A stretch of DNA of 64,000 bases, taken from IMG/VR virus record IMGVR_UViG_3300033074_002003. One strand, 5' to 3'. This document shows, one piece after another, positions 2,342-30,691 of this stretch (the stretch's first letter is position 1; each line of letters starts with the position of its first letter). Source of the DNA: a virus. The notes below the pieces were generated by a model that was not told the DNA's origin, did not search any database, and saw only the letters and a list, made by a program, of their open reading frames with translations. Made by a program: the position numbers and the translations under genes.

Positions 2342-2406
2342 GGTTCACAGTATAAATCCCACGGCGATTTTTCTCGCCGTGCTGCGTGAAGTGATGAGCG
2401 GAAGAT

Positions 2407-11388: not shown

Positions 11389-11766
11389 TCACGTGACTTC
11401 TATCTTTCGTTTCTGCGAACCTTCTTTTTTCGGTATTTTGAGATGTAGCACGCCTGCATCGTATTTTGCTGTCATAGAGCCCACGTCATAGCTTTCGTTC
11501 ACAACGAACGTCTGCGAAATAGACTTGCTTGTCCCGACGCTTTTCTTTGCAGCGACAGAGACATTACGGCCCGTGCACTCTACGGTGATGTCCTCTTTGA
11601 GACACCCGGGAACGTCAAAGAAAATCGTGAGCCCATTTTCGTCAGTGCTCTTTTCGAACTTGTGATATCGATCGTCGTCAGCAAAGAGTTCAGAACGAAA
11701 CAGGCGAGCGAGCTGAAGTTCAGGGTACATGTTTTTCCTCCGTGCTCGCAACGATAAAACACACAC
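11389..11766 (-). CDS. Small heat-shock protein of the Hsp20/alpha-crystallin family. The start may be the internal Met, which would give 11389..11730.
   Basis: The alpha-crystallin domain is recognisable: FDVPGCLKEDITVE...VSV...SQTF..E...D...AKYDAGVLHLKIPK. Confidence 0.8.
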   Translation of the reverse strand: MCVLSLRARRKNMYPELQLARLFRSELFADDDRYHKFEKSTDENGLTIFFDVPGCLKEDITVECTGRNVSVAAKKSVGTSKSISQTFVVNESYDVGSMTAKYDAGVLHLKIPKKEGSQKRKIEVT

Positions 11767-13339: not shown

Positions 13340-13696
13340 ATGATTAGGGACCTCGTTCGAGCGATCATTGTCGAAGAGCTCGAGTCGATGAAGAACGACT
13401 ACGTCGTATCTCAGGACCTCGCACAGAAGAAAATTCGTCCCGTGACGTCTGAAGACGTCAAGATTCGATTCCCTGAGTTTCATACGCGTGTTGCAGAGGC
13501 GCTTTTTGAAGAAGAACGTATTGCTGACCTTCGCGGGATGAAGTGGGCATTCTACGCTAGCTCGTATTCACGGGTGACGCCATTTGCGTATGATCCCGTT
13601 ACGGGGGCCGTGTGTTACTGGCACGCTCCCTCACAGCGCGTCAAGCAGTCCGAAAATTCAGAGATCGACAACGCGATAATTCAGATGTCTCGGTGA
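13340..13696 (+). CDS. Hypothetical protein.
   Basis: A 118-aa ORF. Confidence 0.45.
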   Translation: MIRDLVRAIIVEELESMKNDYVVSQDLAQKKIRPVTSEDVKIRFPEFHTRVAEALFEEERIADLRGMKWAFYASSYSRVTPFAYDPVTGAVCYWHAPSQRVKQSENSEIDNAIIQMSR

Positions 13697-17847: not shown

Positions 17848-20800
17848 ATGGCAGAACAGACATTTCGTTCGCCAGGATTTTACGAGTCTGAGATTGATGC
17901 CGGCAACAGTGCAGCTACCCCAACAGGTACTCCAGCTGGTGTCGTTGGCACATCAGACAAGGGTCCTGCGTTCGTTCCGATTACTGTCGGTTCGTTTTCC
18001 GACTTCAAGGCGAAGTTCGGCGGTCTCAATCCCAAGAAGTACGGTCCTTACGCTGTCAAGTCATTTCTCGATAGCAAGAATGCCTGTACGTTCGTCCGCG
18101 TCCTCGGCGCCGGTGCTAACAACCTGGAGTCTGAGATTACGACGACAGAGCTCACCGGAAAGGTAAAGAACGCCGGATTCGTCATTGCTGGCACCGCGGC
18201 AAATGCGGGTGTCGGTGGAACTGACGGTCGTTACAAGGGTGCGGTTCAGCTTCTTACCGCGCGTCACACGCTTCAGACAAATGAGGCGTTCGGCATCCCG
18301 ATGTTCAGTGACTCTGACGCATACCTCGGTGCTTCGTCAGTTCACCTCGTCCGCGCGATGGTCCTTCTCGCTTCTGGCACGAGGATGATGGTTGTCAACG
18401 GTGATGAGCCCGTGACAGGAGTGTTCGGTTCTCTGGTACCCGATGACTACGCGACGGTTGCCTCTGGCAAGTTCAAGCTCATCCTCTCTTCGACGGACGG
18501 AACTGCATTCGGTGTTGCTGATGGCCTCTCTGGCCTCAAAGTTTACACCGCGTCGCTCGATCCCTCGAGCACCGATTACATCGGCAAGCTGCTCAACTCT
18601 GATCCCGATCGCTTTGCTACCGATCAACACCTTCTCTACGCAGATTTTGCCGTCGACAATGAGGTCGCGACAGCTACTGCAGTCGGCGTTGCATCAGGCT
18701 CTTCGAACACATCACAGACGTCCGGAGACACTTCGCTAGCATTCCGCGAGGCTTTCGGTCGCTTCGACACACGCTACACGACTCCGCGTACGACGATGTT
18801 CATCTCGCAGCCGTTCGGAAAGGTCGAGTATGACCTCTTCTACTTCGAGACACTGGACGACGGTGAGTACGCAAATACCCTCTACAAGGTTTCGATCTCT
18901 AACGTAAGAGCGTCTTCCGATCCGTCGAGCCCATGGGGCACGTTCCAAGTGCTCATTCGTTCGTTCGATGATACGGACGCAAATCCGAAGGTCCTCGAGC
19001 GCTTCCCAAACCTGACGCTCGACCCGAACTCTGATCGCTACATTGCGAAGGTGATCGGTGACCGTGAAGTTAGCTACAACTTCGACGCGACCGACATTGC
19101 AGAGCGCCGCCTTGTCGTCTCCGGCAAGTACAAGAACGCTTCGCGCTACTGCCGTGTTATCGTAAGTGATGCCGTTCGCGATGGGCTTGTCCCGCAGAAC
19201 GTGTTGCCTTTCGGCTTCAGGGGCATTCCGGTTCTGAAGACAAATGACAACCTTACCGATGTCGGTTCTTCGAACCCGCGTCGCCTTGGCATGTCTTTCG
19301 GTCTGAACGTGACATCGTCACTCTCTGGTAGCATCGTGCCGCCCGTTCCCTTCCGACTGAAGGTCACAAAGGGAGACGTTGGCACCTCGGGCTTCACAGG
19401 AAATCCCGGTGCAACGGAGATTGTCAACGCTTCATACTACTGGGGCGTGAAATTCGAGAGGAACACGACCCCTCTCAACCCGAACCCTGCGACAGAGAAG
19501 AACACTCTCATCGGATCGTTTGCGAAGTTCCTTGGAATTTCGAAGCTCGATACGCTTCTCACCGGTTCTGGTGCGGATACACAGAACAACAACAAGTTCA
19601 CGCTTGCAAACGTCGCGTTCTTGCAGCAGGCCGTGTCTGAGCTCACGGGTTCTCCTGTTCAGCACATGCGTGATGTTGCGTACATCAGGAACGCGCGCCC
19701 AGATCCGACATCCTACACCGTGAACGACGGTGTGATCACAAGAAGGATCACGTTCGCGACTCTTGCTGCACAGACGTCGTCCGTCGAGTTCAACAGGTTC
19801 ACGGCGTACGCGAAGTTCACGAACTTCTTCTACGGTGGGTTCGATGGTGTGAACATCCTCGACAGGAACGCTCGTCGAATGAACGACAAGGCGAGTTCCT
19901 TCTCGTCGTATGGTGGAGCAGAGTCTTCGTACGTGTCGCCGGGCCTCAGCAGCAACGTAGGTGGAGCGGGCGTGTCAAACAACGTCGTCTACTCCTACAA
20001 GATTGCCGCAACGATCATGACAGATCCGATGACGGTGAACACAAACATCCTCGCTCTTCCTGGCATCAGGGAGTCGTACATCACGGATTACGTCGCCGAG
20101 AGGGCAAAAGAGTACGGTCTTGCACTGTATGTCCTCGATATCCCGTCCTACGACGAGGACAACAACCGCCTGTACGATGATTCTGTCGCGCGTCCGAGCG
20201 TCGACAAGACGGCGAAGAACTTCGAGTCGAGGGCCATCGACAACAGCTACCTCACGACATACTGGCCGGATGTCTCGCTCGATGACACCGACAATAAGCG
20301 TAGGGTCACGACTCCCGCTTCTGTCGCTGCTCTTGCGGCTCTCGGTTTCAATGACAAGGTCGGCTACCCGTGGTTCGCACCCGCTGGCTTCAATCGCGCG
20401 GCACTTGACTTCGTGAAGAATGTTGGCGTGAGACTGTCAAACTCTGACAGGGATCGCCTGCAGGACGCGCGCATCAACCCGATCGCATCGTTCCCGAAAG
20501 AGGGATTCGTCATCTACGGTCAGAAGACGCTTCAGCAGATGCGAAGCGCCCTCGACAGGGTAAACGTGAGGCGCCTCGTCCTCGAGGTGAAGAGGCTCGT
20601 TGTCGAGCGTGCTCGCAAGCTCGTCTTCGAGAACGGTCTCCCAGAAGAGCGCGACAATTTCGTGAAGGACGTTACGACACAACTCGGCCTCATTCAGACA
20701 CAGGCCGGTCTCGAGTCGTTCAGCGTCACAATGGACGACACGAACAACACACAGGCTGACTTGGACGATCACAGGGTGAACGGCTCAATCGTTCTCGTTC

Positions 20801-20868
20801 CGACGAAGACGATCGAGTTCATCAGCATTGACTTTGTGATCGCCAACGGGCAGGTCACGTTCGTCTGA
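17848..20868 (+). CDS. Tail sheath protein, gp18-like, paralog 1.
   Basis: The N-terminus TGTPAGVVGTSDKGPAFVPITVGSFSDFKAKFG matches T4 gp18 STGTAALAGKFQWGPAF...FG. The conserved C-terminal domain is present (NPIASFP...GQKTL...LDRVNVRRL...VPTKTIEFISIDF). Confidence 0.85.
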   Translation: MAEQTFRSPGFYESEIDAGNSAATPTGTPAGVVGTSDKGPAFVPITVGSFSDFKAKFGGLNPKKYGPYAVKSFLDSKNACTFVRVLGAGANNLESEITTTELTGKVKNAGFVIAGTAANAGVGGTDGRYKGAVQLLTARHTLQTNEAFGIPMFSDSDAYLGASSVHLVRAMVLLASGTRMMVVNGDEPVTGVFGSLVPDDYATVASGKFKLILSSTDGTAFGVADGLSGLKVYTASLDPSSTDYIGKLLNSDPDRFATDQHLLYADFAVDNEVATATAVGVASGSSNTSQTSGDTSLAFREAFGRFDTRYTTPRTTMFISQPFGKVEYDLFYFETLDDGEYANTLYKVSISNVRASSDPSSPWGTFQVLIRSFDDTDANPKVLERFPNLTLDPNSDRYIAKVIGDREVSYNFDATDIAERRLVVSGKYKNASRYCRVIVSDAVRDGLVPQNVLPFGFRGIPVLKTNDNLTDVGSSNPRRLGMSFGLNVTSSLSGSIVPPVPFRLKVTKGDVGTSGFTGNPGATEIVNASYYWGVKFERNTTPLNPNPATEKNTLIGSFAKFLGISKLDTLLTGSGADTQNNNKFTLANVAFLQQAVSELTGSPVQHMRDVAYIRNARPDPTSYTVNDGVITRRITFATLAAQTSSVEFNRFTAYAKFTNFFYGGFDGVNILDRNARRMNDKASSFSSYGGAESSYVSPGLSSNVGGAGVSNNVVYSYKIAATIMTDPMTVNTNILALPGIRESYITDYVAERAKEYGLALYVLDIPSYDEDNNRLYDDSVARPSVDKTAKNFESRAIDNSYLTTYWPDVSLDDTDNKRRVTTPASVAALAALGFNDKVGYPWFAPAGFNRAALDFVKNVGVRLSNSDRDRLQDARINPIASFPKEGFVIYGQKTLQQMRSALDRVNVRRLVLEVKRLVVERARKLVFENGLPEERDNFVKDVTTQLGLIQTQAGLESFSVTMDDTNNTQADLDDHRVNGSIVLVPTKTIEFISIDFVIANGQVTFV

Positions 20869-20880
20869 TTACGCAAAGGC

Positions 20881-20888
20881 CGATACTT
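20881..20888 (+). promoter_or_regulatory. ATACTTA motif instance (GATACTTAGACAC), 25 nt upstream of the sheath 2 start.
   Basis: Recurring motif; see findings. Confidence 0.3.
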
Positions 20889-20912
20889 AGACACGATTAG
20901 GGAGTGACATAA

Positions 20913-23900
20913 ATGGCAGGGTCAAAATTCAGCAGTGCCGGTGTTTCCACGACGGAGATCGATCGGTCCGGTCCTCGGACAGTCGAACCGACAGGTACGC
21001 CAGCAGGCGTCATCGGTACCTCTCTGAAGGGCCCAGCCTTCGTTCCTGTGACTGTCGCTGTGGACGATGACTTCTACTCTGTCTTCGGAAAGACTGATGG
21101 AAAGAAGTTCGGACCTCTCGCGATGGTTGAGTGGCTACGTAACTCTCGCGCAGGTACATACCTTCGCGTCCTCGGTGCTGGTAAAGCACAGCGCAGGCTC
21201 ACGAACGGAGCGAACGTTGGCAGCGTCGAAGGTGCGGGGTTCGTTGTGGGAGCTCAGCTTCCAGACTCCAGCACGGGTGCTCTGACAAACAACCCGTACG
21301 CAAACCTCAACGGTCCCCCAGGAAGGATGTACTTCTTGGGCGCGCTCATGTCGGAGTCGCTGAACTCTACGGTGTTCTCGGACGCGGGACTTCAGGGTCC
21401 TGGTGGTAAGGCACTTCACACAACGGCATCAATCCCGATCGTTCGCGGTGTTGTCATGGCCGCTTCTGGCGTTCTCCTGAGGATGTCTTCGTCTCGCGAT
21501 GGCACAAACTCTGCGCCTGCTTCTACACTTGCTGGTACAGACGCCGGTTCGAACGGTCAGATCATTGGCGCGGTGAAGCTCCTCGAGTCGGGTGTTTCGA
21601 AGCAGGAGTTCGTCATTCTCTTGAACGGACACAAGGGAACTGATGCATCATACCCGAACGCCATCACGGCGTCCTTCGATGTGACAGCACCAAACTACTT
21701 CGGTAACGTCCTCAACAAAGATCCCTACAAGATTGCGCAGGCCGGTCACTACCTCTACGCACAGTACGACATTCACGGCGCGCAGGCGGTCGTGACGGGT
21801 ACTGGAATCGTTTCGACTGCTCTCTCCGCTGGCGGTGGTATCGCTACTGGCTTCGAGGAAGCGGCGTTCATCACGTCGGGTTCTGCCGCCCGCAATACGG
21901 GTGCGGCGAACATCCCCAACTACGAAAACTGGGAGGATCGCTACGACACGGGTAAGACGCCGTGGGTGATCTCGCAGAGGTTCGGTGGTTCACCGGCAAA
22001 CCTCTTCAGATTCTGGATGTTTGACGACGGTGCTGACGTCGCAAACAAGATCAAGATCTCGATCGAGAGCATCACGCCCTCGACAGATCCTACGAACAAG
22101 TACGGCACATTCGATGTCGTGATTCGTAGGTGGGAAGACCGCGACACAGACGCGAAGATCCTCGAGTCGTACAGGGGCGTCAACCTCGATCCTTCGTCTG
22201 ACAAGTACATCGCGAAGGCGATCGGTGATCAGAACATCTACTACGACTGGGAACACGTTGACGACGCGCAGAAGCTCGTTGTCCTCGGCAACTTCCCACG
22301 CGTTTCGAACTACGTTCGCGTAGAGGTAGACTCGCAGGTCGACTCCACGGAGATGGACGCGACAGCTCTTCCGATGGGCTTCCGCGGCGCTCCGCACCTC
22401 ATCACTTCTGGTTCTATGCCGCTCACGAAGGGGTCAGATACGGCCTTCGTCTCGACAGCAACGGGATACGTCGGAAGGGCGGTCCAACCACCGGTTCCCA
22501 TGAGGACAAACATCACAGCGGGATCTGGTGCCTCGCGTGTCGTGAACTCGTCGTACTACTGGGGTGTTCAGTTCGAGCAGGTATCGAACCTCGACCTCCC
22601 GAACGCGTCGTCTGTCCAGAACAAGACGGTCACTAACCTCACGAAGTACTTCCCAAACTTCCAGACGGTAAACGCAAATGTTCTCGCCGAGGACAACTCG
22701 GGCGTCGCAGAGTCGACGACCATGGGTGTGCTCGATGTCGATAGGTTCAACAATAACCTGTTCTCTCTCGAGAACCTCCAGGTTGTCACGAACTCCGCGG
22801 GCTACGCAGATGCGTCCCAGTGGGCATCTGCGGCATACGTCAGGAACGGCGCGATCGCGGCGTCCGATTCGGCGAAGACCCGTGCGTTCAGGCTCACAGA
22901 CCTCACACAGCAGTCGAACAGGAAGTTCGCAAAGTTCTCGCTCTTCGTACAGGGTGGGTTTAACGGCGTGAACATCTTTGACAGGGACGCAGCTGAGCTC
23001 ACGAACAACGCAATTGCGTACGAGATGGCGAACTCCTCACGCGGACTCACCGATGGTCCAACGGTGAAGACGTACCGCAAGGCGATCGATATCATGAAGA
23101 GCACGACAGATGTCGATGTGAAGCTCCTCGTGGCTCCTGGCATCAGGAACCCGATTGTCACCGACTACATGATCAGCGCCGTCGAGGATCGCTTCGACGC
23201 CCTCTACATCATGGACATCGAGGAGAACGACACACACAACCTCCTCGTGACATCCTCGGGACAGACACCGAACGTTCAGTACACCGCGGCTCGCCTCGCG
23301 GACCGCGCACTGAACACGTCCTTCGCGGCAGCTTACTACCCCGACGTCATCATGACAGACCCGAACACACTGACGAACGTCGTTGTGCCACCCTCTGTCG
23401 CGGTGCTCGGAGCGTTCGCTGTGAACGACTCGCTCGCACACCCGTGGTTCGCGCCCGCTGGCTTCGCTCGTGGAGCGCTTGCATCGACGCTCGAGGCGAC
23501 GATCAAGCTCAGCAAGGACAACATGGATACGCTGTCCGACGTCGACATCAACCCGATCGTCGCGTTCCCGGGTTCTTCGCCCACGGGTGCGGATCCAAAG
23601 CCGGGCGGCGTCGTGGTGTGGGGACAGAAGACGCTGTACTCGGTCGCCTCGTCGCTTGACAGGGTGAACGTGCGTCGACTCCTCATCGAGATCCGCAGGA
23701 TGGTCAGGGAGATCTCCAACCTGATCGTGTTCGAGCCCAACCGCGAGGCGACGCTGTCCCGCTTCTCAAACCTCGTGAACCCTCGCCTCGCGAAGGTTCA
23801 GGTGCAGGGCGGTGTCACGAAGTTCCTCGTGAAGATCGATACATCGACCACGACACAGAACGACATCGACAACAACACAATTCGCGGTCAGATCTTCGTC

Positions 23901-23963
23901 ATTCCGACGAAGACGATCGAGACGGTCTCCATCGACTTCATCGTGTCAAATCCTGGCACCTGA
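20913..23963 (+). CDS. Tail sheath protein, gp18-like, paralog 2.
   Basis: The same N-terminal motifs (TGTPAGVIGTSLKGPAFVPVTV) and C-terminal motifs (NPIVAFP...WGQKTL...LDRVNVRRL...IPTKTIETVSIDF) as paralog 1. Confidence 0.85.
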   Translation: MAGSKFSSAGVSTTEIDRSGPRTVEPTGTPAGVIGTSLKGPAFVPVTVAVDDDFYSVFGKTDGKKFGPLAMVEWLRNSRAGTYLRVLGAGKAQRRLTNGANVGSVEGAGFVVGAQLPDSSTGALTNNPYANLNGPPGRMYFLGALMSESLNSTVFSDAGLQGPGGKALHTTASIPIVRGVVMAASGVLLRMSSSRDGTNSAPASTLAGTDAGSNGQIIGAVKLLESGVSKQEFVILLNGHKGTDASYPNAITASFDVTAPNYFGNVLNKDPYKIAQAGHYLYAQYDIHGAQAVVTGTGIVSTALSAGGGIATGFEEAAFITSGSAARNTGAANIPNYENWEDRYDTGKTPWVISQRFGGSPANLFRFWMFDDGADVANKIKISIESITPSTDPTNKYGTFDVVIRRWEDRDTDAKILESYRGVNLDPSSDKYIAKAIGDQNIYYDWEHVDDAQKLVVLGNFPRVSNYVRVEVDSQVDSTEMDATALPMGFRGAPHLITSGSMPLTKGSDTAFVSTATGYVGRAVQPPVPMRTNITAGSGASRVVNSSYYWGVQFEQVSNLDLPNASSVQNKTVTNLTKYFPNFQTVNANVLAEDNSGVAESTTMGVLDVDRFNNNLFSLENLQVVTNSAGYADASQWASAAYVRNGAIAASDSAKTRAFRLTDLTQQSNRKFAKFSLFVQGGFNGVNIFDRDAAELTNNAIAYEMANSSRGLTDGPTVKTYRKAIDIMKSTTDVDVKLLVAPGIRNPIVTDYMISAVEDRFDALYIMDIEENDTHNLLVTSSGQTPNVQYTAARLADRALNTSFAAAYYPDVIMTDPNTLTNVVVPPSVAVLGAFAVNDSLAHPWFAPAGFARGALASTLEATIKLSKDNMDTLSDVDINPIVAFPGSSPTGADPKPGGVVVWGQKTLYSVASSLDRVNVRRLLIEIRRMVREISNLIVFEPNREATLSRFSNLVNPRLAKVQVQGGVTKFLVKIDTSTTTQNDIDNNTIRGQIFVIPTKTIETVSIDFIVSNPGT

Positions 23964-24096: not shown

Positions 24097-24531
24097 ATGA
24101 AGATCAAGTGGAATAGTTTGCGACGGCTCATTAGGGAAGAGATCAAGCGTAGTGGGCTCCTCACAGAGGTTGCCTGCCCGGTGTGCGGCACCGAGGGCGC
24201 GTACGTGGGACTCAACAACGTAGAGTGCACAAACAAAAAGTGCAAGCACTACGTACCGTCAGAGGCTGCTCCCGAGGCATCCGCAAAGAGCATCAAATTT
24301 CACCCTTCAAACGATCCATACGTAGTGAATCACTTGATGCCTTACTTTGAGGCGGGAGAAATCACACCATGTCCTGGTGCTGATTATTACGCAACGGGTT
24401 ACGGTTCTCTTGGTGCCTACAACAGTGAGGGCACGTGTGTCGGACAATGGCAGTGTGATACCGAAATACCCGATTGTGAAGCCAACGTCCAGCGGAGTCC
24501 CGATTACAGCGGACAGTGGGGACCCCCGTGA
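24097..24531 (+). CDS. Leader-family small protein 1 with a zinc-ribbon (CPVCGTEGAYVGLNNVEC...KCKHY). The start was chosen at the internal Met.
   Basis: The N-terminus is MKIKWNSLRRLIREEIKRSG. A gaggga RBS lies upstream. Confidence 0.55.
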   Translation: MKIKWNSLRRLIREEIKRSGLLTEVACPVCGTEGAYVGLNNVECTNKKCKHYVPSEAAPEASAKSIKFHPSNDPYVVNHLMPYFEAGEITPCPGADYYATGYGSLGAYNSEGTCVGQWQCDTEIPDCEANVQRSPDYSGQWGPP

Positions 24532-24917
24532 GAATCAGACTCTCAGCTCTGCGACGGCTCATCAAAGAGGAACTGTCACTCTTGACAGAGTCCCGGTGTC
24601 CCGTCTGTGGAACTGAGGGTGCGTACGTAGGACTGAATGACGTAGAGTGTGTCAATCCACGCTGTACGCACTACAAGCGTCCAGAGAATGTCATTGGCAC
24701 TGCTGGTTTCAAACCGGGCGACATCGTTAGATACGATGGGTCATACGACGGTGATGTGCCAGAATTTGGCATGGTTGACGAGGTCGAGGGAAACCTTCTC
24801 ATTGTCACGTCGCTTGACAATCCTGGAGAAGAGCGGGAATGGGACGCCGAGACGTGTCAACTTGTCCCGGAAGACGCGTATCCCGGAAAAAAACCAAGAA
24901 AGAAAAATCGGCCATGA
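24516..24917 (+). CDS. Leader-family small protein 2, a zinc-ribbon paralog of protein 1.
   Basis: The N-terminus is (V)RIRLSALRRLIKEELSLLT with a GTG start. The zinc-ribbon reads CPVCGTEGAYVGLNDVECVNPRCTHY. The gene overlaps the end of the previous gene. Confidence 0.55.
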   Translation: MGTPVRIRLSALRRLIKEELSLLTESRCPVCGTEGAYVGLNDVECVNPRCTHYKRPENVIGTAGFKPGDIVRYDGSYDGDVPEFGMVDEVEGNLLIVTSLDNPGEEREWDAETCQLVPEDAYPGKKPRKKNRP

Positions 24918-25297
24918 GAATCAGACTTAGCCAACTGCGTCAGATTATCAGAGAAGAACTGTCTGCCGTTGTTCCGCCGGGTGACGACTGGGAAGAGATC
25001 ATGGCGAGAGTCAAGAAATACCCAGGTCGCGGCGGTGAGCGGTACGAGGCGGGAACGGGCGGAGATCCGAGCCTGGGCCGCGGACAGCTAGAGCGTGACA
25101 ATCCCGAGGCCTTCGCCGCTCTTGAAGACATGTTCGGTGACACATCTAGCATTAAGGTTTGGGAAGAGATGGGCGCGCTGCACGCAACGGCTCCGGGCGG
25201 GCGGGGTGCGGGTTCTCTTCTCCTCTGGGGTGCGGACGGTCAGTGGCACAGGGCGTACGATCGCAGGAAGCGCGTCCGCGCGTCGGTTGATGGCTAA
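24914..25297 (+). CDS. Leader-family small protein 3.
   Basis: The N-terminus is MRIRLSQLRQIIREELSAVV. The ATGA overlap with the upstream stop suggests translational coupling. Confidence 0.5.
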   Translation: MRIRLSQLRQIIREELSAVVPPGDDWEEIMARVKKYPGRGGERYEAGTGGDPSLGRGQLERDNPEAFAALEDMFGDTSSIKVWEEMGALHATAPGGRGAGSLLLWGADGQWHRAYDRRKRVRASVDG

Positions 25298-25317
25298 ACT
25301 AAGAAAAGTGTAGGACA

Positions 25318-25605
25318 ATGAAAATCAAACTCAGCAAACTGCGTCAAATCATCAGGGAGGAGCTGTCGCCGCCCGAGGGGACGACCCTCGATTCGCGCTC
25401 GCTCGCCGAAGCCACGCTAGAAGACGCGGACGTGCAGGAGTCGATTCGCGATCTAGCGATGAGCGTTACAAGTGCGCTGGGTGAGCTCATGGGACGCAGG
25501 GACATGGGTGAGCTTCACATACACTTTGCCAACGAGTTCTCTGATGCTGTCATCGAGATGATCAATGACGATCTCTTGCAGTTCTACGCAGAGAACCCGG
25601 AGTGA
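25318..25605 (+). CDS. Leader-family small protein 4.
   Basis: The N-terminus is MKIKLSKLRQIIREELSPPE. Confidence 0.55.
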   Translation: MKIKLSKLRQIIREELSPPEGTTLDSRSLAEATLEDADVQESIRDLAMSVTSALGELMGRRDMGELHIHFANEFSDAVIEMINDDLLQFYAENPE

Positions 25606-25607
25606 CG

Positions 25608-26771
25608 TCAGTGCGGACGTGACTTTCGTAGGTTCATCCAATCTGATTCCCACATGGTAACGACGACATAGCCTGCTTCTCGCAGGATACTTTCGCGGTC
25701 TAGCGTATATTGCAAGTGTTGTGACATTGGTGCGCACGACATGTGATTGATTTTGTCGGGTGCCTGTGTCTTCGGATTGCCGTGCCAATAGTCGCCGTAG
25801 TACTCGTAGATCGTGCTGTTGATGAGCCCGTCAACGTTGAAGCGTCGACCTTCTACATGAACCCACCGATTTCGACATTCGGGTGGAATGCTGAGAGAGT
25901 CGAGCCATTCTGTTTCGCCCTTTGAGATAAGAGGCGAACAGATGTCACATCGATCGTTCAACAAACCGACGTAGTCTCGAAGCTTTTCGTTTCCGCAACT
26001 GTTACATCTCATCAGCAATGTCGCGTAGCACGCAGCCACATAGTCGGTTTCACTTCCAACAAATGTCAAGTTTTTGAGCTTTGAAAACGATTCAGAGATC
26101 TGTGACCAGGGGATCCTAATGAGATTGCGATGTCTCTCCATATCGCGACTGTTTGCCCACGTTATCAAGCGAGGCTCTGTCTCTTTCGTTTTTCCCTTTG
26201 ACCAAGCTTGACGCTTCCCAGACGCAAAATCGTCTCGTTGCTGTTGTGCCCACTTAGCAACGCGTTCGTCTGTCTCTTCTGTAAGTCCTTTGTGCCACGC
26301 ATTCCGTTCGCCACTAGCGTACTGCTCTTTGAACATTTCACTCATTGCGGCAACACGTTCGTCTGTCTCCTTTGTTTTGCCTTTTGACCAGATCGTGATT
26401 TCACCAGCGTCCATAAGCGTTTTCCGCGTCTTGCTCACTTTTTTTCCCATTGCCGCGAGGCGTGGATCAGTGTCTTTCGTTTTGCCCTTCCATGGAACTC
26501 CGTGACCATTCACGTACTCACGCTCAAATCCGCGCGCCCACCCATACCATCGCACGTACTTTCCACACCCACACTTGCAAATGGGCCTAGCACCGCCGCA
26601 TTTCGTATCGACGTAGACTTCGATCGGATCAGTAATCCCGTGAGTCGTGCCGTAATGTTCGGTAATTTTTTCGTTCATCCCGGCGCGAGCTGTCACAAAA
26701 TCGCACTTGGCACACTTGATTGGGTTTCTTGCCGACGTCTTCATTTTGTGATGATACAACGCTCTTTTCAC
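25608..26771 (-). CDS. Homing-endonuclease-like protein with a C2H2-like zinc finger, a CKCGCG motif, four NUMOD3-like repeats (GKTKETD/E...) and a Vsr-like nuclease.
   Basis: The N-terminus carries CAKCDF...EHYGTTH and CKCGCGKYV. Repeats read WKGKTKDTDPRLAAM and SKGKTKETDERVAAM. The C-terminus reads EYYGDYWHGNP...VVVTMWESDW. Confidence 0.75.
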   Translation of the reverse strand: MKRALYHHKMKTSARNPIKCAKCDFVTARAGMNEKITEHYGTTHGITDPIEVYVDTKCGGARPICKCGCGKYVRWYGWARGFEREYVNGHGVPWKGKTKDTDPRLAAMGKKVSKTRKTLMDAGEITIWSKGKTKETDERVAAMSEMFKEQYASGERNAWHKGLTEETDERVAKWAQQQRDDFASGKRQAWSKGKTKETEPRLITWANSRDMERHRNLIRIPWSQISESFSKLKNLTFVGSETDYVAACYATLLMRCNSCGNEKLRDYVGLLNDRCDICSPLISKGETEWLDSLSIPPECRNRWVHVEGRRFNVDGLINSTIYEYYGDYWHGNPKTQAPDKINHMSCAPMSQHLQYTLDRESILREAGYVVVTMWESDWMNLRKSRPH

Positions 26772-26856
26772 TTTGTTTATTTAATTTGTCGAAATTGTAA
26801 ACGAGCGCATATCTAGTCCTGTGTGACACTGAGTTGTTTGGTGTCCCAAAAGAAAG

Positions 26857-27357
26857 TTGGATGCGAAAATCGCTGAAGTTCTTGACGTTACAACTCTCCT
26901 TCCAAATAAGTACGAGCCAAAGCGAAAAGGGCGATGGTTGCTTGCGATAGAGGGTATTGACGCCTTCCTCTGCAAGACAGCCCAGAGGCCGCAGATCCAG
27001 ACAGAGCGCCTCGAGATCCCGTTCATGAACTCGCGTCGGTACATCGCGGGCAAGACGACTTTTCAGGAGATGTCAGTGACGCTCATGGACCCAGTCGCTC
27101 CCTCGGGCGCCCAGCAGGTCATGGAGTGGCTGCGCCTGCACTTCGAGTCTGTCTCGGGACGTGCGGGTTACGCAGACTTCTACAAGCGCGACGTGCAGCT
27201 CAAGTTGACAGACCCCACGGGAACGGTCGTCGAACTATGGGACGTGAAAGGCGCTTTCATAACCAACGTCAACTTCGGAGAGCTTACGTACGAAGACCAA
27301 AATGCCATCGAGATTCAGCTGACGTTGTCTTACGACAACGCTGTACTTCAGTTCTGA
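26857..27357 (+). CDS. Tail tube protein, T4 gp19-like.
   Basis: CKTAQRP...EIPFMNSRRYIAGKTTFQEMSVTLMD aligns with T4 gp19 CKATALP...KIPVGFMNRKINVAGDRTFDDWTVTVMND. The C-terminus GAFITNVNFGELTYEDQNAIEIQLTLSYD aligns with GLWPTNVGELQLDWDSNNEIQTFEVTLALDY. Confidence 0.8.
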   Translation: MDAKIAEVLDVTTLLPNKYEPKRKGRWLLAIEGIDAFLCKTAQRPQIQTERLEIPFMNSRRYIAGKTTFQEMSVTLMDPVAPSGAQQVMEWLRLHFESVSGRAGYADFYKRDVQLKLTDPTGTVVELWDVKGAFITNVNFGELTYEDQNAIEIQLTLSYDNAVLQF

Positions 27358-27383
27358 TCTCGACTCTGGATCGTTGCACCGCT

Positions 27384-27420
27384 CGAAAGGCCCTACGATG
27401 GGCCTTTCGACGTTTAATTT
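27384..27420 (+). terminator. Rho-independent terminator (CGAAAGGCCC-tacgat-GGGCCTTTCG, then ACGTTTAATTTT) after the tube gene.
   Basis: A 10-bp perfect stem and a T-rich tail lie immediately downstream of the tube gene stop. Confidence 0.55.
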
Positions 27421-27436
27421 TGTTCTTGTTGGAACG

Positions 27437-29095
27437 ATGAGATACAACTTGATCATGTTCAAATGTCCTCGTTGCGATCGCGAATTCTGTTGGGCTGCCA
27501 AGCTCGAAAAACACATTGTAGCAGAGCATGGACTCGATCCCGAAGCGTTGTACATCGAGACACAGTGTGCTGGGGGAGTACCACAATGCGGGTGCGGGTG
27601 CCTCAGCAAAATCCCGTGGAACGGGTGGAAGCTGGGATTTTCCTCCAAGTTCCTCCGCGGGCACAACGCGTCATCCCAAGGAAATTTCTCCAATCCAGAG
27701 ATTCACGCTGCAGCACAGGCAACCCGTGTGAGCAACATTCGTTCCGGGAAGACGAAAATCTGGAACGCTGGAAAGACGAAAGAGACGGACGAAAGCCTGG
27801 CTCGAGCTTCTATCAAGAAGAGCGCGACAATGCGCGAAGGGTACGCTTCTGGTAGGATCAAAGCGCACTGGCTTGGTAAGACAAAAGAGACGTGCGATGC
27901 GCTCGCGCGCGGGTCTGCTACCAAGAAGCGTAACTTTCTAGAGGGCGTCTCTAAGGTCTGGAATGAGGGTCTTACACGCGAGACGTCAGAAAAGTTAGCT
28001 GGGATTGGCGACAGAATCTCTCACACGCGGGTGACGAATTATGATTCGGCGACGCGATACACGAGAGAAGATGTCACAAAAATAGCGGAAGAAGCGGGAT
28101 TTGAACTGCTATCAAATCCCGATGATTACAGAAACAAGTACCAACTACTTCACGTGAGGTGTCTAGAGAAGGGACACGACTCGCAACGAAATGTGATGAT
28201 GTTGCAAAATACACCGAAATGTCTTATTTGCCACCCGAAAGAATCGTGCGCTCAGCTAGAACTCTCTGCATTTGTCAGGTCGCTCGGCGTCGAGGTGTAC
28301 GAGTCGACGAGACGGGTTATCCCTCCCCGCGAGATCGATGTCTACTGTCCCGCGCACAAGTTTGGAATCGAGTTCAACGGACTGTTCTTCCACACAGACG
28401 CGACGAAGCACCCGCTCTATCACGAAGAGAAGACAGATGCAGCAACCTCTGTGGGTGTCAGACTGTTTCACGTCTTTGAGGACGAGTGGCGCGACAAGCG
28501 ACGGATCGTAGAGTCGATGGTGCGAGCTCGCCTGGGCATCGCGCCGCGGAGAGTCTTCGCTCGCAAGTGTGTCGTGAAGGAAATCACCCCAGAGGTCAGG
28601 CGAGAGTTCTTCGAGAGGACACACATTGATGGTGACGCTAGAGCGACGATCGCGTGGGGATTGTTCTCGGGCGATGAGCTCCTCTCTGTGATCTCACTCA
28701 GAAAACCGATTCGCAAATCTTTGGGTGTCACTGTATTTGAGCTCGCGAGATATTCTAGTGAACTCAACACATCTGTCGTGGGCGGTCTGGGCAAGCTTCT
28801 TGCACAGTGCAAACTCTGGCTCAGGGGTCGCGGCGTCAGAGTGCTGATGACCTACGTTGACAAGCGACACGGTGATGGCCACGGGTACGAGAGGCTCGGA
28901 TTTGCGTGTGTCGGAATCACGGGTTCTCCACGATTCTGGTGGACGGGTGGAGAGGTGGGACCGAACCGCGTCGATAGGCTGACATACAGAGCAGATTCGG
29001 AACGTGGACTCACCGAGAAGCAGGTGGCGGAGGACGCGGGGGTCAATCGGATCTACGGGTGCACGAACAAGGTGTATGAGCTCTCGATCGACTGA
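27437..29095 (+). CDS. Homing-endonuclease-like protein (C2H2 zinc finger, CGCGC motif, NUMOD3-like repeats, Vsr-like nuclease) fused to an extra ~250-aa C-terminal domain of unknown function. The start was chosen at MRYNL, downstream of the terminator.
   Basis: The N-terminus carries CPRCDREF...HIVAEHG and CGCGCLSKIP. Repeats read GKTKIWNAGKTKETDESLA. The nuclease region reads IEFNGLFFHTDATKHP...FHVFEDEW. A C-terminal tail continues to residue 573. Confidence 0.7.
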   Translation: MRYNLIMFKCPRCDREFCWAAKLEKHIVAEHGLDPEALYIETQCAGGVPQCGCGCLSKIPWNGWKLGFSSKFLRGHNASSQGNFSNPEIHAAAQATRVSNIRSGKTKIWNAGKTKETDESLARASIKKSATMREGYASGRIKAHWLGKTKETCDALARGSATKKRNFLEGVSKVWNEGLTRETSEKLAGIGDRISHTRVTNYDSATRYTREDVTKIAEEAGFELLSNPDDYRNKYQLLHVRCLEKGHDSQRNVMMLQNTPKCLICHPKESCAQLELSAFVRSLGVEVYESTRRVIPPREIDVYCPAHKFGIEFNGLFFHTDATKHPLYHEEKTDAATSVGVRLFHVFEDEWRDKRRIVESMVRARLGIAPRRVFARKCVVKEITPEVRREFFERTHIDGDARATIAWGLFSGDELLSVISLRKPIRKSLGVTVFELARYSSELNTSVVGGLGKLLAQCKLWLRGRGVRVLMTYVDKRHGDGHGYERLGFACVGITGSPRFWWTGGEVGPNRVDRLTYRADSERGLTEKQVAEDAGVNRIYGCTNKVYELSID

Positions 29096-29130
29096 GCCGT
29101 TGCTTGTACGCGAGTATCATAATTACTCGC

Positions 29131-29526
29131 ATGAGAATCTCGCTAGATGACCTGCGCCGTGTGATCTCAGAGGAGCTCCATCGCCTCGCCGAAGCGCCCC
29201 AGACGGATCCTGAGGAGCTCGCGGCCTCGCCCGAGTACGCCTCGCTCGAAGACTTTGTCCAGTTCAAGATGGACGAGGACGAATTCGAGTTTAGCTTCAT
29301 AGACCTGCAAGCGTTGAACATGTCGCTGCAGCGTCCCATGTCTTCGATCAGGGCTGAGCTCGAGGGTTACGGCATGAAGCTTTCTGCCCGCGCTCCAGAG
29401 AAGAGGACGCGCGGGTTTACCACGTCTTCGAACGATCGTTGGTTTGGCCCTGGCAGCCTCAAGACTCACGGTGGCGCGGGTATTGACAGCCATACAGGAA
29501 GAGCGACCACGAAGGGTGGGATCTGA
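29131..29526 (+). CDS. Leader-family small protein 5. The start was chosen at the internal Met.
   Basis: The N-terminus is MRISLDDLRRVISEELHRLAE. Confidence 0.5.
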   Translation: MRISLDDLRRVISEELHRLAEAPQTDPEELAASPEYASLEDFVQFKMDEDEFEFSFIDLQALNMSLQRPMSSIRAELEGYGMKLSARAPEKRTRGFTTSSNDRWFGPGSLKTHGGAGIDSHTGRATTKGGI

Positions 29527-30062
29527 TGGGCGCCGGTGACCTCCGGACGCTCGTTCGTGAGGCTGTGATCGATATCACTGGTCGCCTGCAGAAGAAGAAG
29601 TCGGACGCGTTCGCTGACAAGGTGAAAGACCTCGCGAGCTCAATCACGGGTGCGTTTGACCAGCAGCGCGAGCAGGAAGCAGCTGTCAGTGACGCGTTTG
29701 ATGAACTACCCGTGGGTGTGGACAAGATCGTGGGACAGAAGAGGTTTCGACTCGCCTGTCCGCTCGCATTTTCGGGCGACGAGGGGTGGCCACCGGACAC
29801 GTCCGTCTATACGATTGTCTCGCTCTTGCACCCGAGAGATTACTCGTACGAGCAGGTCGCTCGCTATATCGCCGCAAATGCCGATGTTTTTGCCGACTCT
29901 GTGCGGTGGCTCGACGATACCATCACCGGGTTAGAGAAGACGTTCGACGCGATGGACTGGCCCGCACCCTGGCGTCGCTACACGTCGTGGGGCAGTATCA
30001 CGCGTGATGTGCAGCGATACACGGATATCGTTGAGGACATCACGGGACAGGAGATCGTCTGA
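29526..30062 (+). CDS. Leader-family-like protein 6, a divergent member.
   Basis: The N-terminus is MGAGDLRTLVREAVIDI. ATGA overlaps occur at both ends. Confidence 0.45.
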   Translation: MGAGDLRTLVREAVIDITGRLQKKKSDAFADKVKDLASSITGAFDQQREQEAAVSDAFDELPVGVDKIVGQKRFRLACPLAFSGDEGWPPDTSVYTIVSLLHPRDYSYEQVARYIAANADVFADSVRWLDDTITGLEKTFDAMDWPAPWRRYTSWGSITRDVQRYTDIVEDITGQEIV

Positions 30063-30283
30063 TGGATCCGAAGCACACGAGCCTTCGCAGGATAATCCGC
30101 GCGACAATTGTTGGGGCCACAAAGGGTGAAATTGACGAATATCGCAGTGCGGCGGGCGGCGGAGCGAGGTACCCGCGGAGGTTCGACGTTTATCCAGAGG
30201 ACGGTTATGCTCCTGACGAACCAGCGATCGACGATCCCGAAGAATCGGACGGCGAAGGTGATTGCGGGTGCGATAGAACGTGA
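30062..30283 (+). CDS. Leader-family-like small protein 7, a divergent member.
   Basis: The N-terminus is MDPKHTSLRRIIRATIVG. Confidence 0.4.
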   Translation: MDPKHTSLRRIIRATIVGATKGEIDEYRSAAGGGARYPRRFDVYPEDGYAPDEPAIDDPEESDGEGDCGCDRT

Positions 30284-30307: not shown

Positions 30308-30691
30308 ATGGCATTTGATAACCCAAGAGCAGGATTTAACGCGACAGCAGAGTTCCAGGTCTCCGCCCTTCCGTGGATGACCTCCTCTGTCGTCACCGGT
30401 GGGACGGTGAAGCGGTACGACTTCACACACTTCACGAAGTTCGTTATCGTGAAGAATACGACCGCAGGAACTGTCGCGCAAGTCGCTGTGAACCTCAACG
30501 GCTTCTCGCGATCGAATTACTTCGAGCTTGTCGGCGGCGAGTCTGTGTCACTTGACTGGCGAATCAGGCAGCTGTTCGTGTCTGGCTCTACTGGATCGCC
30601 TTCTATCTCGGTTGTCGCGGGTCTCACTGGCATCGAGGCGAAGCAGTGGCCCATCATCACGGGCTCTATGGGATTTGAGGGGGTGGGCTGA
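30308..30691 (+). CDS. Hypothetical structural protein.
   Basis: A 127-aa ORF. Confidence 0.5.
   Translation: MAFDNPRAGFNATAEFQVSALPWMTSSVVTGGTVKRYDFTHFTKFVIVKNTTAGTVAQVAVNLNGFSRSNYFELVGGESVSLDWRIRQLFVSGSTGSPSISVVAGLTGIEAKQWPIITGSMGFEGVG

What the first reader, a model, noticed from the sequence alone, without database searches (positions are those of the whole stretch)
24097..30283. Family of at least seven small proteins sharing an N-terminal leader M(R/K)I(R/K)LSxLRxxIREEL, flanking the tail tube gene
Seven consecutive, translationally coupled small ORFs start with the same ~16-residue amphipathic segment, while their downstream sequences diverge: two zinc-ribbon paralogs and several A/D/R-rich proteins. 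The starts are at 24097, 24516, 24914, 25318, 29131, 29526 and 30062. The leader is conserved at the nucleotide level too (A(G/A)AATCA(G/A)ACT.AGC...CTGCG.C......ATCA(G/A)(A/G)GA(A/G)GA(A/G)CTGTC). The genes sit between the duplicated sheath genes and the gp19-like tube gene and again right after it. This resembles the T4 internal-protein capsid-targeting sequence and the N-terminal packing signals that load cargo into the tube lumen of contractile injection systems. These could be virion- or tail-lumen-packaged ejected proteins marked by a shared targeting leader. No such family exists next to T4 genes 18 and 19.
Basis: partly seen in the sequence, partly recalled or inferred. Interest (0 to 1): 0.85.

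Follow-up and report, generated by a model that had tools for sequence, protein, structure and literature searches.

The report
Shared capsid-address leader on phage proteins
Five (perhaps seven) small genes beside the tail tube gene of this uncultivated T4-like phage start with the same 15-residue tag, a tag found on thousands of otherwise unrelated phage proteins, and it most likely works like the T4 "capsid targeting sequence" that loads proteins into the phage head and is then cut off.

Summary
Five ORFs (starts 24097, 24528, 24914, 25318, 29131) carry a clear N-terminal leader M(K/R)I(K/R)LSxLRxxI(K/R)EE. ORFs 29526 and 30062 carry only degenerate versions.

The leader is not tied to the tube gene. 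It is the window's version of MKITKRQLRRIIKEE, which heads at least 5,800 protein clusters in aquatic viral metagenomes. It occurs in tandem arrays of up to 17 genes and is essentially absent from cellular genomes and cultured phages. Conservation is at protein level and collapses after residue 15. The downstream sequences are almost all unrelated to each other.

The leader ends in I-x-E, the cleavage motif of the T4 gp21 prohead protease. In related contigs, leader genes sit directly beside a gp21-family protease gene, between portal and protease, in the positions of T4 genes 67 and 68. The same cargo domains occur behind different leaders that all end in (L/I)-x-E.

Best explanation, at about 0.6 confidence: a T4-CTS-like prohead-targeting propeptide that marks packaged, probably ejected, fast-evolving proteins. 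The tail-lumen reading is not supported. This is a new variant of a known kind. There is no experimental proof.

The parts
24097..24531 (+). Leader protein 1 (144 aa). Leader MKIKWNSLRRLIREE is encoded at 24097-24141. It is followed by a CPVC...CxxC zinc ribbon and a Cys-rich tail. A GAGGGAG Shine-Dalgarno sequence lies 5 nt upstream. Gene callers extend this ORF to an upstream ATG at 23980.
24528..24917 (+). Leader protein 2 (129 aa, GTG start overlapping the stop of protein 1). Leader (V/M)RIRLSALRRLIKEE is encoded at 24528-24572. It is a zinc-ribbon paralogue of protein 1 with a different C-terminal small beta domain.
24914..25297 (+). Leader protein 3 (127 aa, ATGA overlap with protein 2). 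Leader MRIRLSQLRQIIREE. Near-identical strains carry a 17-aa deletion directly after the leader.
25318..25605 (+). Leader protein 4 (95 aa, acidic). Leader MKIKLSKLRQIIREE. The gene is frameshifted or truncated to 40 aa in near-identical strains.
29131..29526 (+). Leader protein 5 (131 aa). Leader MRISLDDLRRVISEE. A 36%-identical homologue carries the leader MQIRLDDLKQIIRE on a metagenome-assembled contig (L294).
29526..30062 (+). Possible degenerate member (178 aa). N-terminus MGAGDLRTLVREAV holds the L-R-x-L-V-R-E core but is two residues short. It is not significant by the leader HMM.
30062..30283 (+). Possible degenerate member (73 aa). MDPKHTSLRRIIRAT is in the correct register (L8 R9 R10 I11 I12 R13), but Glu14 is replaced by Ala. 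HMM score 7.7 bits, E 1.7.
26857..27357 (+). Context: gp19-like tail tube gene. A strong terminator-like hairpin follows at 27383-27410.
25608..26771 (-). Context: HNH-type homing-endonuclease-like gene. It interrupts the array upstream of the tube gene.
27374..29095 (+). Context: homing endonuclease gene (PHROG 3339 and 559), a 27%-identical paralogue of 25608-26771. It lies between the tube gene and leader protein 5.
17848..23963 (+). Context: two tandem tail sheath paralogues (1006 and 1016 aa, 33% identical) directly upstream of the array.

Best explanation
The 15-residue leader is a capsid (prohead-core) targeting propeptide of the T4 CTS kind.

Proposed mechanism:
- As an N-terminal amphipathic helix, the leader docks the newly made protein onto the scaffolding core while the prohead assembles.
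- The gp21-family (Peptidase_S77) prohead protease then cuts after the conserved Glu of the I-(K/R)-E motif (residue 14, perhaps 15). This frees the C-terminal cargo inside the head.
- The cargo is probably ejected with the DNA at the next infection.

The window's five to seven genes are one hypervariable island of such cargo genes. The island sits in a plastic spot of the tail module that also holds homing endonucleases. The cargoes themselves (two zinc-ribbon proteins and three acidic or Ala/Asp/Arg-rich proteins) have no assignable activity. By analogy with T4 IPI*, which inhibits a host restriction enzyme, they are candidates for early-acting host-takeover or anti-defence factors.

Shown here: the leader family itself, its protein-level conservation, its sharp boundary, its I-x-E ending, the diversity of cargo, leader swapping, gene adjacency to the head protease in related phages, and restriction to viral sequence.

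Inferred: docking to the core, cleavage, packaging, ejection and anti-defence function. Also inferred is that this phage encodes the protease, because its head module lies outside the window.
For: (1) Modular tag. There are 65 leader ORFs in 27 of the 80 tube-anchored related loci plus the window, all at N-termini on the structural strand. An unbiased pattern scan gave 359 more in 117 loci, and 351 of those begin at an M or V start codon. Information content is 3-4.3 bits at M1, L8, R9, I12 and E14 and falls below 1.2 bits from residue 16. The 349 distinct proteins fall into 254 unrelated C-terminal clusters, 202 of them singletons. The few recognisable cargo domains are unrelated to one another: AAA_33/polynucleotide kinase, YkuD L,D-transpeptidase, LysM, 2H phosphoesterase and EF-hand.

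(2) Protein-level selection. All six Leu and all six Arg codons are used at the invariant positions.

(3) Cleavage motif. I/V at position 12 and E at position 14 occur in about 98% of leaders. This matches the gp21 motif L/I-X-E, with cleavage after Glu, and parallels the 10-residue N-terminal T4 CTS (review PMC9026906; PMC3012670). T4 IPI read here begins MKTFKEF...ITE|A, and T4 gp24 begins MAKINELLRE.

(4) Head-module context. 12 of the 117 pattern-derived loci contain a homologue of the Mel-JY01 prohead protease. In 7-8 of these the leader ORF directly abuts the protease gene, upstream or downstream, and in 3 more it lies within about 400 bp. In L174 the order is Portal_T4, three further ORFs, three leader ORFs, then a homologue of the Mel-JY01 prohead protease. 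In L144 the order is Portal_T4, Peptidase_S77, then a 341-aa leader protein. In L110 four leader ORFs follow the major capsid gene. This mirrors the T4 order 20-67-68-21-22-23.

(5) Leader swapping. Homologous cargo carries MKITKTQLREIIKEE in one contig and MIKLKDLLVE in another (68% identity over 103 aa). The AAA_33 kinase carries MKITNKQLRQIIKEE or MKLLLEGWRKYLNE (64% over 210 aa). MKLTASDLRQIIQE|VTQGEMEF corresponds to MNLKDHLIELINE|VTQGEMEF. Every alternative leader ends in (L/I)-x-E, and homology starts at or within a few residues after that Glu. Two of the alternative leader types resemble the N-terminus of the protease itself, MSKVLLREYY....

(6) Restricted to viruses. Only 18 stretches were found in 185,579 species genomes, all on metagenome-assembled contigs, some with 12-17 leader genes per 8 kb.

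(7) Rapid turnover. Strains 98.6-99.9% identical to the window in the flanking sequence differ by an indel right after the leader of ORF3, a frameshift in ORF4, and a chimera joining the N-terminus of ORF1 to the C-terminus of ORF2.
Against: - There is no virion proteomics or N-terminal mapping for any member. No cultured phage carries this leader: tblastn against 50,697 phage records found one weak hit, in an uncultured 484-kb genome.
- The leader has no significant sequence similarity to the T4 CTS, gp67 or gp68. The leader HMM scores 3 bits or less against T4 head proteins.
- The window contains no head genes, so a gp21-type protease in this particular phage is inferred from relatives only.
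- Most leader arrays (about 85 of 117 loci) lie next to no recognisable structural gene. Tube-proximal arrays are about as frequent as protease-proximal ones. Position therefore does not discriminate strongly.
- Some contigs carry 28 or more leader genes. That is many for capsid cargo, although phiKZ-like heads hold comparable numbers of proteins.
- Many proteins contain 2-4 internal copies of the leader. This fits polyprotein processing, but it equally fits a repeated interaction motif.
- A test for avoidance of [LI]-x-E inside cargo was weak: observed/expected 1.14 against 1.36 in a noisy control set.
Confidence: 0.6

Rival explanations
1. The leader is a permanent N-terminal amphipathic helix with another shared job. 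Candidates are coiled-coil oligomerisation, or docking of many different small proteins onto one common phage or host partner such as a chaperone, a membrane, a polymerase or a hub protein. In this reading it is neither removed nor involved in packaging.
For: - The segment is predicted helical (residues 5-20 in the AlphaFold model of ORF2, though at low confidence).
- It has a heptad-like hydrophobic pattern.
- It occurs 2-4 times inside many longer proteins, as repeated interaction motifs do.
- Most arrays are not next to head genes.
Against: - This reading does not explain why four or more different leader types all end in (L/I)-x-E, or why homology between swapped cargoes starts right after that Glu.
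- It does not explain why leader genes occupy the gp67/gp68 slots beside the S77 protease.
- It does not explain why conservation stops so abruptly at residue 15.
Confidence: 0.2
2. The leader targets proteins to the tail: either into the tube lumen, as in extracellular contractile injection systems, or onto the tail as accessory subunits. This would explain the position between the sheath and tube genes.
For: - In the window, and in 27 of the 80 tube-anchored relatives, leader genes lie within 10 kb of the tube gene and on the same strand.
- Several cargoes act on the cell wall (YkuD, LysM, transglycosylase- and endolysin-like domains). Such activities would suit a tail-delivered protein.
Against: - Only about 8 of 117 unbiased leader loci include the tube gene.
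- Arrays also flank the prohead protease and the capsid gene and lie in many loci with no structural gene.
- From established knowledge of T4-type tails, the tube lumen is filled by the tape measure protein.
- The I-x-E ending and the S77 protease link point to head maturation.
- The cultured relative Mel-JY01 has no gene between its sheath and tube genes.
Confidence: 0.05
3. The conserved sequence is a nucleic-acid element: either a shared translation-initiation or regulatory region, or a recombination cassette boundary that shuffles ORFs, like the PeSL elements of T4-type hyperplastic regions. In this reading the peptide is a by-product.
For: - The leader sits at the 5' end of tandem, translationally coupled genes in a plastic region with homing endonucleases.
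- Paralogue chimeras exist whose junction lies in the conserved N-terminal part (P0126).
Against: - Synonymous codons vary freely while the amino acids are fixed. Leu8 uses six codons, Arg9 uses six, and Ser is encoded by both TCA and AGC within the window.
- The motif also occurs inside ORFs.
Confidence: 0.03
4. The leader proteins are structural or scaffolding components of the prohead core (functional analogues of gp67, gp68 and gp22) that are degraded and expelled. In this reading they are not cargo kept in the head and ejected.
For: - Leader ORFs occupy exactly the gp67/gp68 positions in L086, L152, L169 and L174, and the position directly after the protease in L144 and L123.
- Many members are acidic and helical.
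Against: - The extreme diversity (254 clusters from 349 proteins), the strain-level loss of members, the enzymatic cargo domains and the arrays of up to 17 genes are not expected of essential scaffold parts.
- A separate gp22-like scaffold protein without this leader is present in the same modules.
- This reading may nevertheless hold for the protease-adjacent subset.
Confidence: 0.1

Closest known systems
T4 internal proteins IPI, IPII, IPIII and Alt with their capsid targeting sequence (CTS)
   Same: - A short N-terminal propeptide is shared by otherwise unrelated proteins.
- It ends in the gp21 cleavage motif (L/I)-x-E.
- The genes lie in hypervariable loci outside the head module, next to homing endonucleases and tail or neck genes. 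In T4, ipI sits beside segB, 57A and gene 3.
- The cargo is diverse and fast-evolving. [quoted passage not shown]
   Different: - The leader is 15 residues (MKITKRQLRRIIKEE), against 10 (MKTYQEFIAE) or 19 (IPI), and shows no significant sequence similarity to them.
- The family is vastly larger: tens of genes per genome, arrays of up to 17, and at least 5,836 clusters at 50% identity.
- Internal repeated copies and polyprotein-like members exist.
- Several alternative leader types coexist in one genome.
- Packaging and cleavage have not been shown.
T4 prohead core proteins gp67 and gp68, and the N-terminal propeptides of gp24 and gp21
   Same: - These are small proteins encoded between the portal and protease genes and processed at (L/I)-x-E.
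- The gp24 propeptide MAKINELLRE and the gp67 segment ...TIDLIKEEK... look superficially like the leader.
- Leader ORFs occupy the same gene positions in L174, L169, L152 and L086.
   Different: - No significant sequence similarity.
- The window's own members are in the tail module, not the head module.
- Members are individually dispensable, as the strain variation shows.
Processed head and ejection proteins of phiKZ-like and SPN3US giant phages
   Same: Dozens of head-internal proteins are matured by a diverged gp21-type protease that cuts after Glu in a three-residue motif (PMC9026906).
   Different: - The motif there is S/A-x-E.
- The propeptides are long and not a shared short leader.
- These phages belong to a different lineage.
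N-terminal packing signals of extracellular contractile injection systems (PVC, AFP)
   Same: An N-terminal signal on diverse payloads encoded next to sheath and tube genes.
   Different: Those signals load the tube lumen of a headless particle. In this family the evidence points to head maturation (I-x-E ending, S77 protease neighbourhood), and the link to the tube gene is not general.

Membership tests
T4-type CTS-bearing internal (packaged) proteins | A short N-terminal propeptide shared by proteins whose mature parts are unrelated | tested here: met
   The leader is conserved over residues 1-15 only. 349 proteins fall into 254 unrelated C-terminal clusters.
T4-type CTS-bearing internal (packaged) proteins | The propeptide ends in the prohead protease motif (L/I)-x-E | tested here: met
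   I/V at position 12 and E at position 14 occur in about 98% of 358 leaders. All alternative leaders on swapped cargo also end in (L/I)-x-E. The motif definition is taken from PMC9026906.
T4-type CTS-bearing internal (packaged) proteins | The phage encodes a gp21-family prohead protease and a scaffolding core | tested here: inconclusive
   Peptidase_S77 and Portal_T4 genes lie beside leader genes in related contigs, and Mel-JY01 has both. The window itself holds no head genes, so for this phage the protease is inferred.
T4-type CTS-bearing internal (packaged) proteins | Sequence similarity to the T4 CTS (MKTYQEFIAE or MKTFKEF) | tested here: not met
   The leader HMM scores 3 bits or less against the T4 head proteins gp21, gp22, gp23, gp67 and gp68. 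The T4 IPI N-terminus read shares only the MK start and the x-E ending.
T4-type CTS-bearing internal (packaged) proteins | Incorporation into proheads, removal of the propeptide, presence in virions, ejection into the host | not testable with these tools
   No cultured phage with this leader was found. No paper containing the leader sequence was found.
T4 prohead core proteins gp67/gp68 | Small ORFs between the portal gene and the protease gene | tested here: not met
   Not met for the window's ORFs, which lie between the sheath and tube genes and after the tube gene. Met for family members in L086, L152, L169 and L174.
Contractile-injection-system cargo with an N-terminal packing signal | Cargo genes consistently linked to the tube/sheath operon and loaded into the tube lumen | tested here: not met
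   Only about 8 of 117 unbiased leader loci include a tube gene. Lumen loading cannot be tested with these tools.
Pfam, PHROG or NCBI-named protein family | A significant match of the window proteins to a curated family | tested here: not met
   No Pfam or PHROG hit passes threshold for any of the seven ORFs. The NCBIfam library was not searched.

The most novel reading that the evidence does not exclude
Uncultivated aquatic T4-like (Far-T4-type) phages use a set of interchangeable N-terminal address tags: MKITKRQLRRIIKEE, MIKLKxLLxE, MKKLLTEWRKYLxE and MNLLREYIRELLTE. All end in the protease site (L/I)-x-E. With these tags the phages load tens of rapidly diversifying effector proteins per genome into the capsid for co-injection. 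Effectors include polynucleotide kinase, 2H phosphoesterase, L,D-transpeptidase, LysM proteins, zinc-ribbon proteins and multi-module polyproteins. That would be an effector-delivery system far larger than the T4 internal proteins. The leader would then serve as a sequence handle for mining thousands of candidate injected anti-defence proteins directly from metagenomes.
Probability: 0.35. Interest if true: 0.8.

Novelty: new variant of a known kind. Interest (0 to 1): 0.62.

Why it matters
If the leader is a capsid-targeting and cleavage tag, a 15-residue motif identifies, from sequence alone, which proteins of a large and abundant group of uncultivated aquatic phages are packaged and probably injected. 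The T4 precedent shows that this class contains dedicated inhibitors of host defences and host-takeover enzymes. The family has at least 5,836 clusters at 50% identity, and almost all of them lack any annotation. It would be a ready-made catalogue for discovering anti-defence proteins. It would also give new targeting tags for loading foreign proteins into phage heads, and a natural experiment in how address tags and cargo are shuffled. Finally, it shows that the T4 CTS principle, known from a handful of coliphage proteins, is widespread and greatly expanded elsewhere in the T4 superfamily.

Tried and rejected
- Pfam and PHROG scans of the seven ORFs gave nothing above threshold.
- blastn of the region against GenBank phages found no relative.
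- tblastn of the leader plus a typical cargo against 50,697 phage records gave one weak hit, in an uncultured 484-kb genome. tblastn of an MIKLK-type protein gave no hit.
- A full-text search for the leader peptide in 8 million papers gave 0 hits. The Far-T4 genomics paper does not mention the family. No paper on Mel-JY01 is held in the library.
- An alignment of 22-residue leaders was too short for the protein search and was repeated with 42-residue sequences.
- Cluster look-up for source names returned none.
- T4 gp67 contains LIKEEK, which looked like a lead for homology, but the HMM score is about 2-3 bits, so it is rejected as evidence.
- Protease-anchored loci turned out to come mostly from another clade. 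Only 7 of those 80 loci hold the MKIT-type leader, so they could not serve as an unbiased adjacency test. They did reveal the second leader type, MIKLKxLLxE.
- The test for avoidance of [LI]-x-E in cargo was inconclusive: observed/expected 1.14 against 1.36 in a control set that includes spurious ORFs.
- The AlphaFold2 model of ORF2 has mean pLDDT 63, too low for a fold search. It shows only an N-terminal helix, zinc-ribbon hairpins and a small beta domain.
- The T4 late-promoter consensus TATAAATA does not occur in the window. The sigma-70 promoter and terminator scans were at chance level, apart from the hairpin after the tube gene.
- RiPP-precursor and Sec/Tat signal-peptide readings were considered and dropped. 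The cargoes are 60-450 aa folded or helical proteins, and the leader is highly charged with no hydrophobic core.


Full report
**What is in the window.**
The region lies in the tail module of a distant T4-like phage (GC about 55%).
- Two tandem sheath paralogues (17848-20868 and 20913-23963, 33% identical) are followed by four small + strand ORFs.
- Next comes an HNH-type homing endonuclease gene on the minus strand (25608-26771).
- Then the gp19-like tube gene (26857-27357; Pfam Phage_T4_gp19, PHROG 4542).
- Then a second homing endonuclease gene (27374-29095, a 27%-identical paralogue).
- Then three more small ORFs.

The rest of the window carries T4-type genes: a gp15-like neck protein, a baseplate hub, UvsX, gp32-like and gp41-like proteins. 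It carries no head genes. No GenBank phage is close. By tube protein identity, the nearest cultured relatives are Microcystis phage Mel-JY01 (47%), Flavobacterium 'immuto' phages (41%) and Rhodothermus phage RM378 (35%). This places the window in or near the uncultivated 'Far-T4' group (PMC4360716).

**Checking the observation.**
Five ORFs start with the same peptide: MKIKWNSLRRLIREE, (V)RIRLSALRRLIKEE, MRIRLSQLRQIIREE, MKIKLSKLRQIIREE and MRISLDDLRRVISEE. A codon-degenerate pattern for the shared residues hits exactly these five start sites and none in 100 shuffles.
- The second gene must start at GTG 24528, not 24516, because only that start gives the family register.
- ORFs 29526 and 30062 carry only degenerate versions and do not reach significance.
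- Stop and start codons overlap at four junctions, so translational coupling is real.
- Conservation is at the protein level. Ser6 is TCA in one gene and AGC in two others. Across 358 distinct leader DNAs from related sequences, Leu8 uses all six Leu codons and Arg9 all six Arg codons.

**The leader is a very large, unannotated, virus-only family.**
- Loci anchored on tube-protein homologues in IMG/VR (about 70% identity, more than 598 loci) contain the motif as MKITKRQLRRIIKEE at the N-terminus of many small ORFs. There are 65 such ORFs in 27 loci plus the window, all on the structural strand, with up to 11 per locus.
The 117 new loci hold 359 leader ORFs, and 351 of them begin at an M or V start codon.
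- Information content is high at M1, K2, I3, T4, Q7, L8, R9, I11, I12 and E14, and collapses from residue 16 onward.
- The parts after the leader are almost all unrelated: 349 proteins form 254 BLAST clusters, 202 of them singletons.
- Among the 150 longest members, only six have Pfam domains, and those domains are unrelated to one another: AAA_33 kinase (two members), YkuD L,D-transpeptidase, LysM, a 2H phosphoesterase and an EF-hand. PHROGs adds polynucleotide kinase, DNA-binding, and transglycosylase- or endolysin-like hits.
- A profile search of 1.84 billion cluster representatives finds 5,836 proteins at E ≤ 0.001. Because the signal is so short, this is a lower bound. The word-indexed search of 5.8 billion proteins returns unnamed 42-74-aa marine proteins.
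- In 185,579 species-representative genomes the pattern occurs in only 18 stretches. All are on metagenome-assembled contigs, and several are packed with leader genes, for example 17 in 8 kb of a 305-kb contig binned as 'Methylococcaceae TMED69'.
- Among 50,697 GenBank phage records only one uncultured 484-kb genome gives a weak hit.
- No paper in the searchable library contains the peptide.

**What points to the head.**
- *Motif.* The leader ends in I-(K/R)-E, with I/V at position 12 and E at position 14 in about 98% of members. The T4 prohead protease gp21 cuts after Glu in L/I-X-E. The T4 capsid targeting sequence is a 10-residue N-terminal propeptide that ends in such a site and suffices to load foreign proteins into the head (PMC9026906). 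T4 internal proteins are described as a diverse set of defence proteins sharing only the CTS (PMC3012670). T4 sequences read here show the same design: IPI MKTFKEF...ITE|A and gp24 MAKINELLRE|.
- *Gene context.* Of the 117 loci fetched solely because they contain the leader pattern, 12 also contain a homologue of the Mel-JY01 prohead protease. In most of these the leader ORF abuts the protease gene. In L174 the order is Portal_T4, three further ORFs, three leader ORFs, then a homologue of the Mel-JY01 prohead protease. In L144 it is Portal_T4, three ORFs, Peptidase_S77, then a 341-aa leader protein. In L132 a leader-tagged AAA_33 kinase directly precedes the protease. In L110 four leader ORFs follow the major capsid gene. 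This is the T4 arrangement 20-67-68-21-22-23, with leader genes in the positions of the processed core proteins.
- *Leader swapping.* Homologous cargo domains occur behind different N-terminal leaders. These include MKITKTQLREIIKEE versus MIKLKDLLVE, MKITNKQLRQIIKEE versus MKLLLEGWRKYLNE on the same kinase, MKLTASDLRQIIQE|VTQGEMEF versus MNLKDHLIELINE|VTQGEMEF, and MNLLREYIRELLTE versus MKITESQLRSLIRE. Every alternative leader is 10-15 residues long, amphipathic, and ends in (L/I)-x-E. Cargo homology begins at or just after that Glu.
- *A second leader in a sister clade.* Several small ORFs downstream of the protease in that clade share the 10-residue leader MIKLKxLLxE.
- *Resemblance to the protease.* Two leader types resemble the N-terminus of the S77 protease itself, MSKVLLREYY.../MSKQLLTEFF.... 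The protease is a core component whose own termini are thought to act as targeting propeptides.

**What does not fit, or is not shown.**
- The leader is not significantly similar to any T4 propeptide. The claim is therefore 'works like a CTS', not 'is homologous to the T4 CTS'.
- Position alone does not separate head from tail. About 8 of the 117 loci include the tube gene, 12 include the protease, and most include no recognisable structural gene.
- The window's own head module is out of view.
- Many proteins hold 2-4 leader copies, usually still preceded by Met. This fits fusions that are processed as polyproteins, but it also fits a repeated binding motif.
- A composition-controlled test for avoidance of [LI]-x-E in cargo was only weakly in the expected direction.
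- The AlphaFold model of ORF2 is of low confidence (pLDDT 63). It supports only a helix at residues 5-20, zinc-ribbon hairpins and a small beta domain.
- There are no proteomic data.

**Evolutionary behaviour.**
Metagenomic strains that are 98.6-99.9% identical to the window in the flanking genes differ precisely in this array:
- ORF3 has a 17-residue indel immediately after the leader.
- ORF4 is frameshifted.
- Database proteins include a chimera (P0126) of the N-terminus of ORF1 with the C-terminus of ORF2, and the ORF2 leader plus zinc ribbon joined to a different C-terminal domain (P0127).

Together with the flanking homing endonucleases, this marks a hyperplastic island of dispensable, recombining genes. 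The T-even ipI locus behaves in the same way.

**Verdict.**
The tail-lumen analogy is not supported.
- The main rival, at about 0.2, is a permanent amphipathic docking or oligomerisation helix.
- The finding is a new, greatly expanded and so far undescribed variant of a known principle, not a new principle. Its value is as a sequence handle on thousands of candidate packaged or ejected phage proteins.

Noticed in passing
window 17848-20868 and 20913-23963: There are two tandem tail sheath genes of about 1000 aa each, only 33% identical to each other. The cultured relative Mel-JY01 has a single 812-aa sheath gene. A heteromeric or alternative sheath would be unusual.
   Followed up: partly
window 25608-26771 (-), 27374-29095 (+), 13681-14664 (-), 10087-10953 (+): Several paralogous zinc-finger/HNH-type homing-endonuclease-like genes carry repeated 'GKTKETDE' (NUMOD-like) motifs. 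Two of them bracket the tube gene on opposite strands. In near-identical strains the corresponding proteins are 378 and 565 aa.
   Followed up: partly
window 27383-27410: A strong terminator-like hairpin (11-bp stem, 7 G-C pairs, T-rich tail) lies right after the tube gene and inside the annotated 5' end of the 27374 ORF. The endonuclease therefore probably starts further downstream, around 27437.
   Followed up: no
window 13340-13696: This 118-aa ORF begins MIRDLVRAIIVEELE. The IIxEE ending is leader-like, but the register differs and the leader HMM does not detect it. It lies next to another homing endonuclease gene and the gp15-like neck gene.
   Followed up: no
window 11742-12548 and 12526-13323: A Thg1-like tRNA-His guanylyltransferase gene (PHROG 4717, E 2.5e-38) and a metallophosphoesterase gene sit inside the structural region.
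   Followed up: no
L204-L283 (for example L206:6881-7677, L222:6629-7261, L225:4575-5655) and L081:7243-7968: A second leader family, MIKLKxLLxE (10 aa), heads several small ORFs downstream of the prohead protease in a sister clade of marine T4-like phages. Many of these share a 'WDRKFGEPLPTL' cargo. Mel-JY01 has one such gene (MISLKSLIKH...) right after its capsid gene.
   Followed up: partly
L084:5723-6900, L121:797-1630, L156:1468-5100, L103 (minus strand, about 2400-3500): Two further leader families, MKKLLTEWRK(Y/F)L(K/N)E and M(N/K/R)LLREYIRE(L/M)LxE, occur in tandem arrays in the same contigs as the MKIT-type leader. They resemble the N-terminus of the S77 protease (MSKVLLREYYALCEGG...).
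   Followed up: partly
L082:8889-9998; proteins P0128-P0167: Some polyprotein-like ORFs contain 2-4 leader copies. The internal copies are usually still preceded by Met (…ESMKITKRQLRR…). They could be gene fusions, in-frame restarts, or substrates cut into modules by the protease.
   Followed up: partly
L287, L296, L299, L301 (NHDW01000006.1, 305,838 bp); L289 and L295 (PBIO01000025.1); L284, L285, L288 and L294 (JBBAUR01...): Contigs deposited as bacterial metagenome-assembled genomes (Methylococcaceae TMED69, Halobacteriovorax, Bdellovibrionota) carry dense leader-gene arrays, up to 17 in 8 kb. They are probably mis-binned large phage genomes.
   Followed up: partly
L302-L305 compared with window 24900-25400: Strains 98.6-99.9% identical to the window in the flanking sequence drop to 84% identity here. 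ORF3 has an indel and ORF4 a frameshift, so this is a strain-level hot spot inside the array.
   Followed up: yes
window 30308-30691: This 127-aa ORF (…AYQ(I/V)SA(L/M)P(F/W)(V/M)TSS…) is conserved at 35-46% identity in many tube-anchored loci. It has no family assignment and is probably a conserved tail or baseplate component.
   Followed up: no
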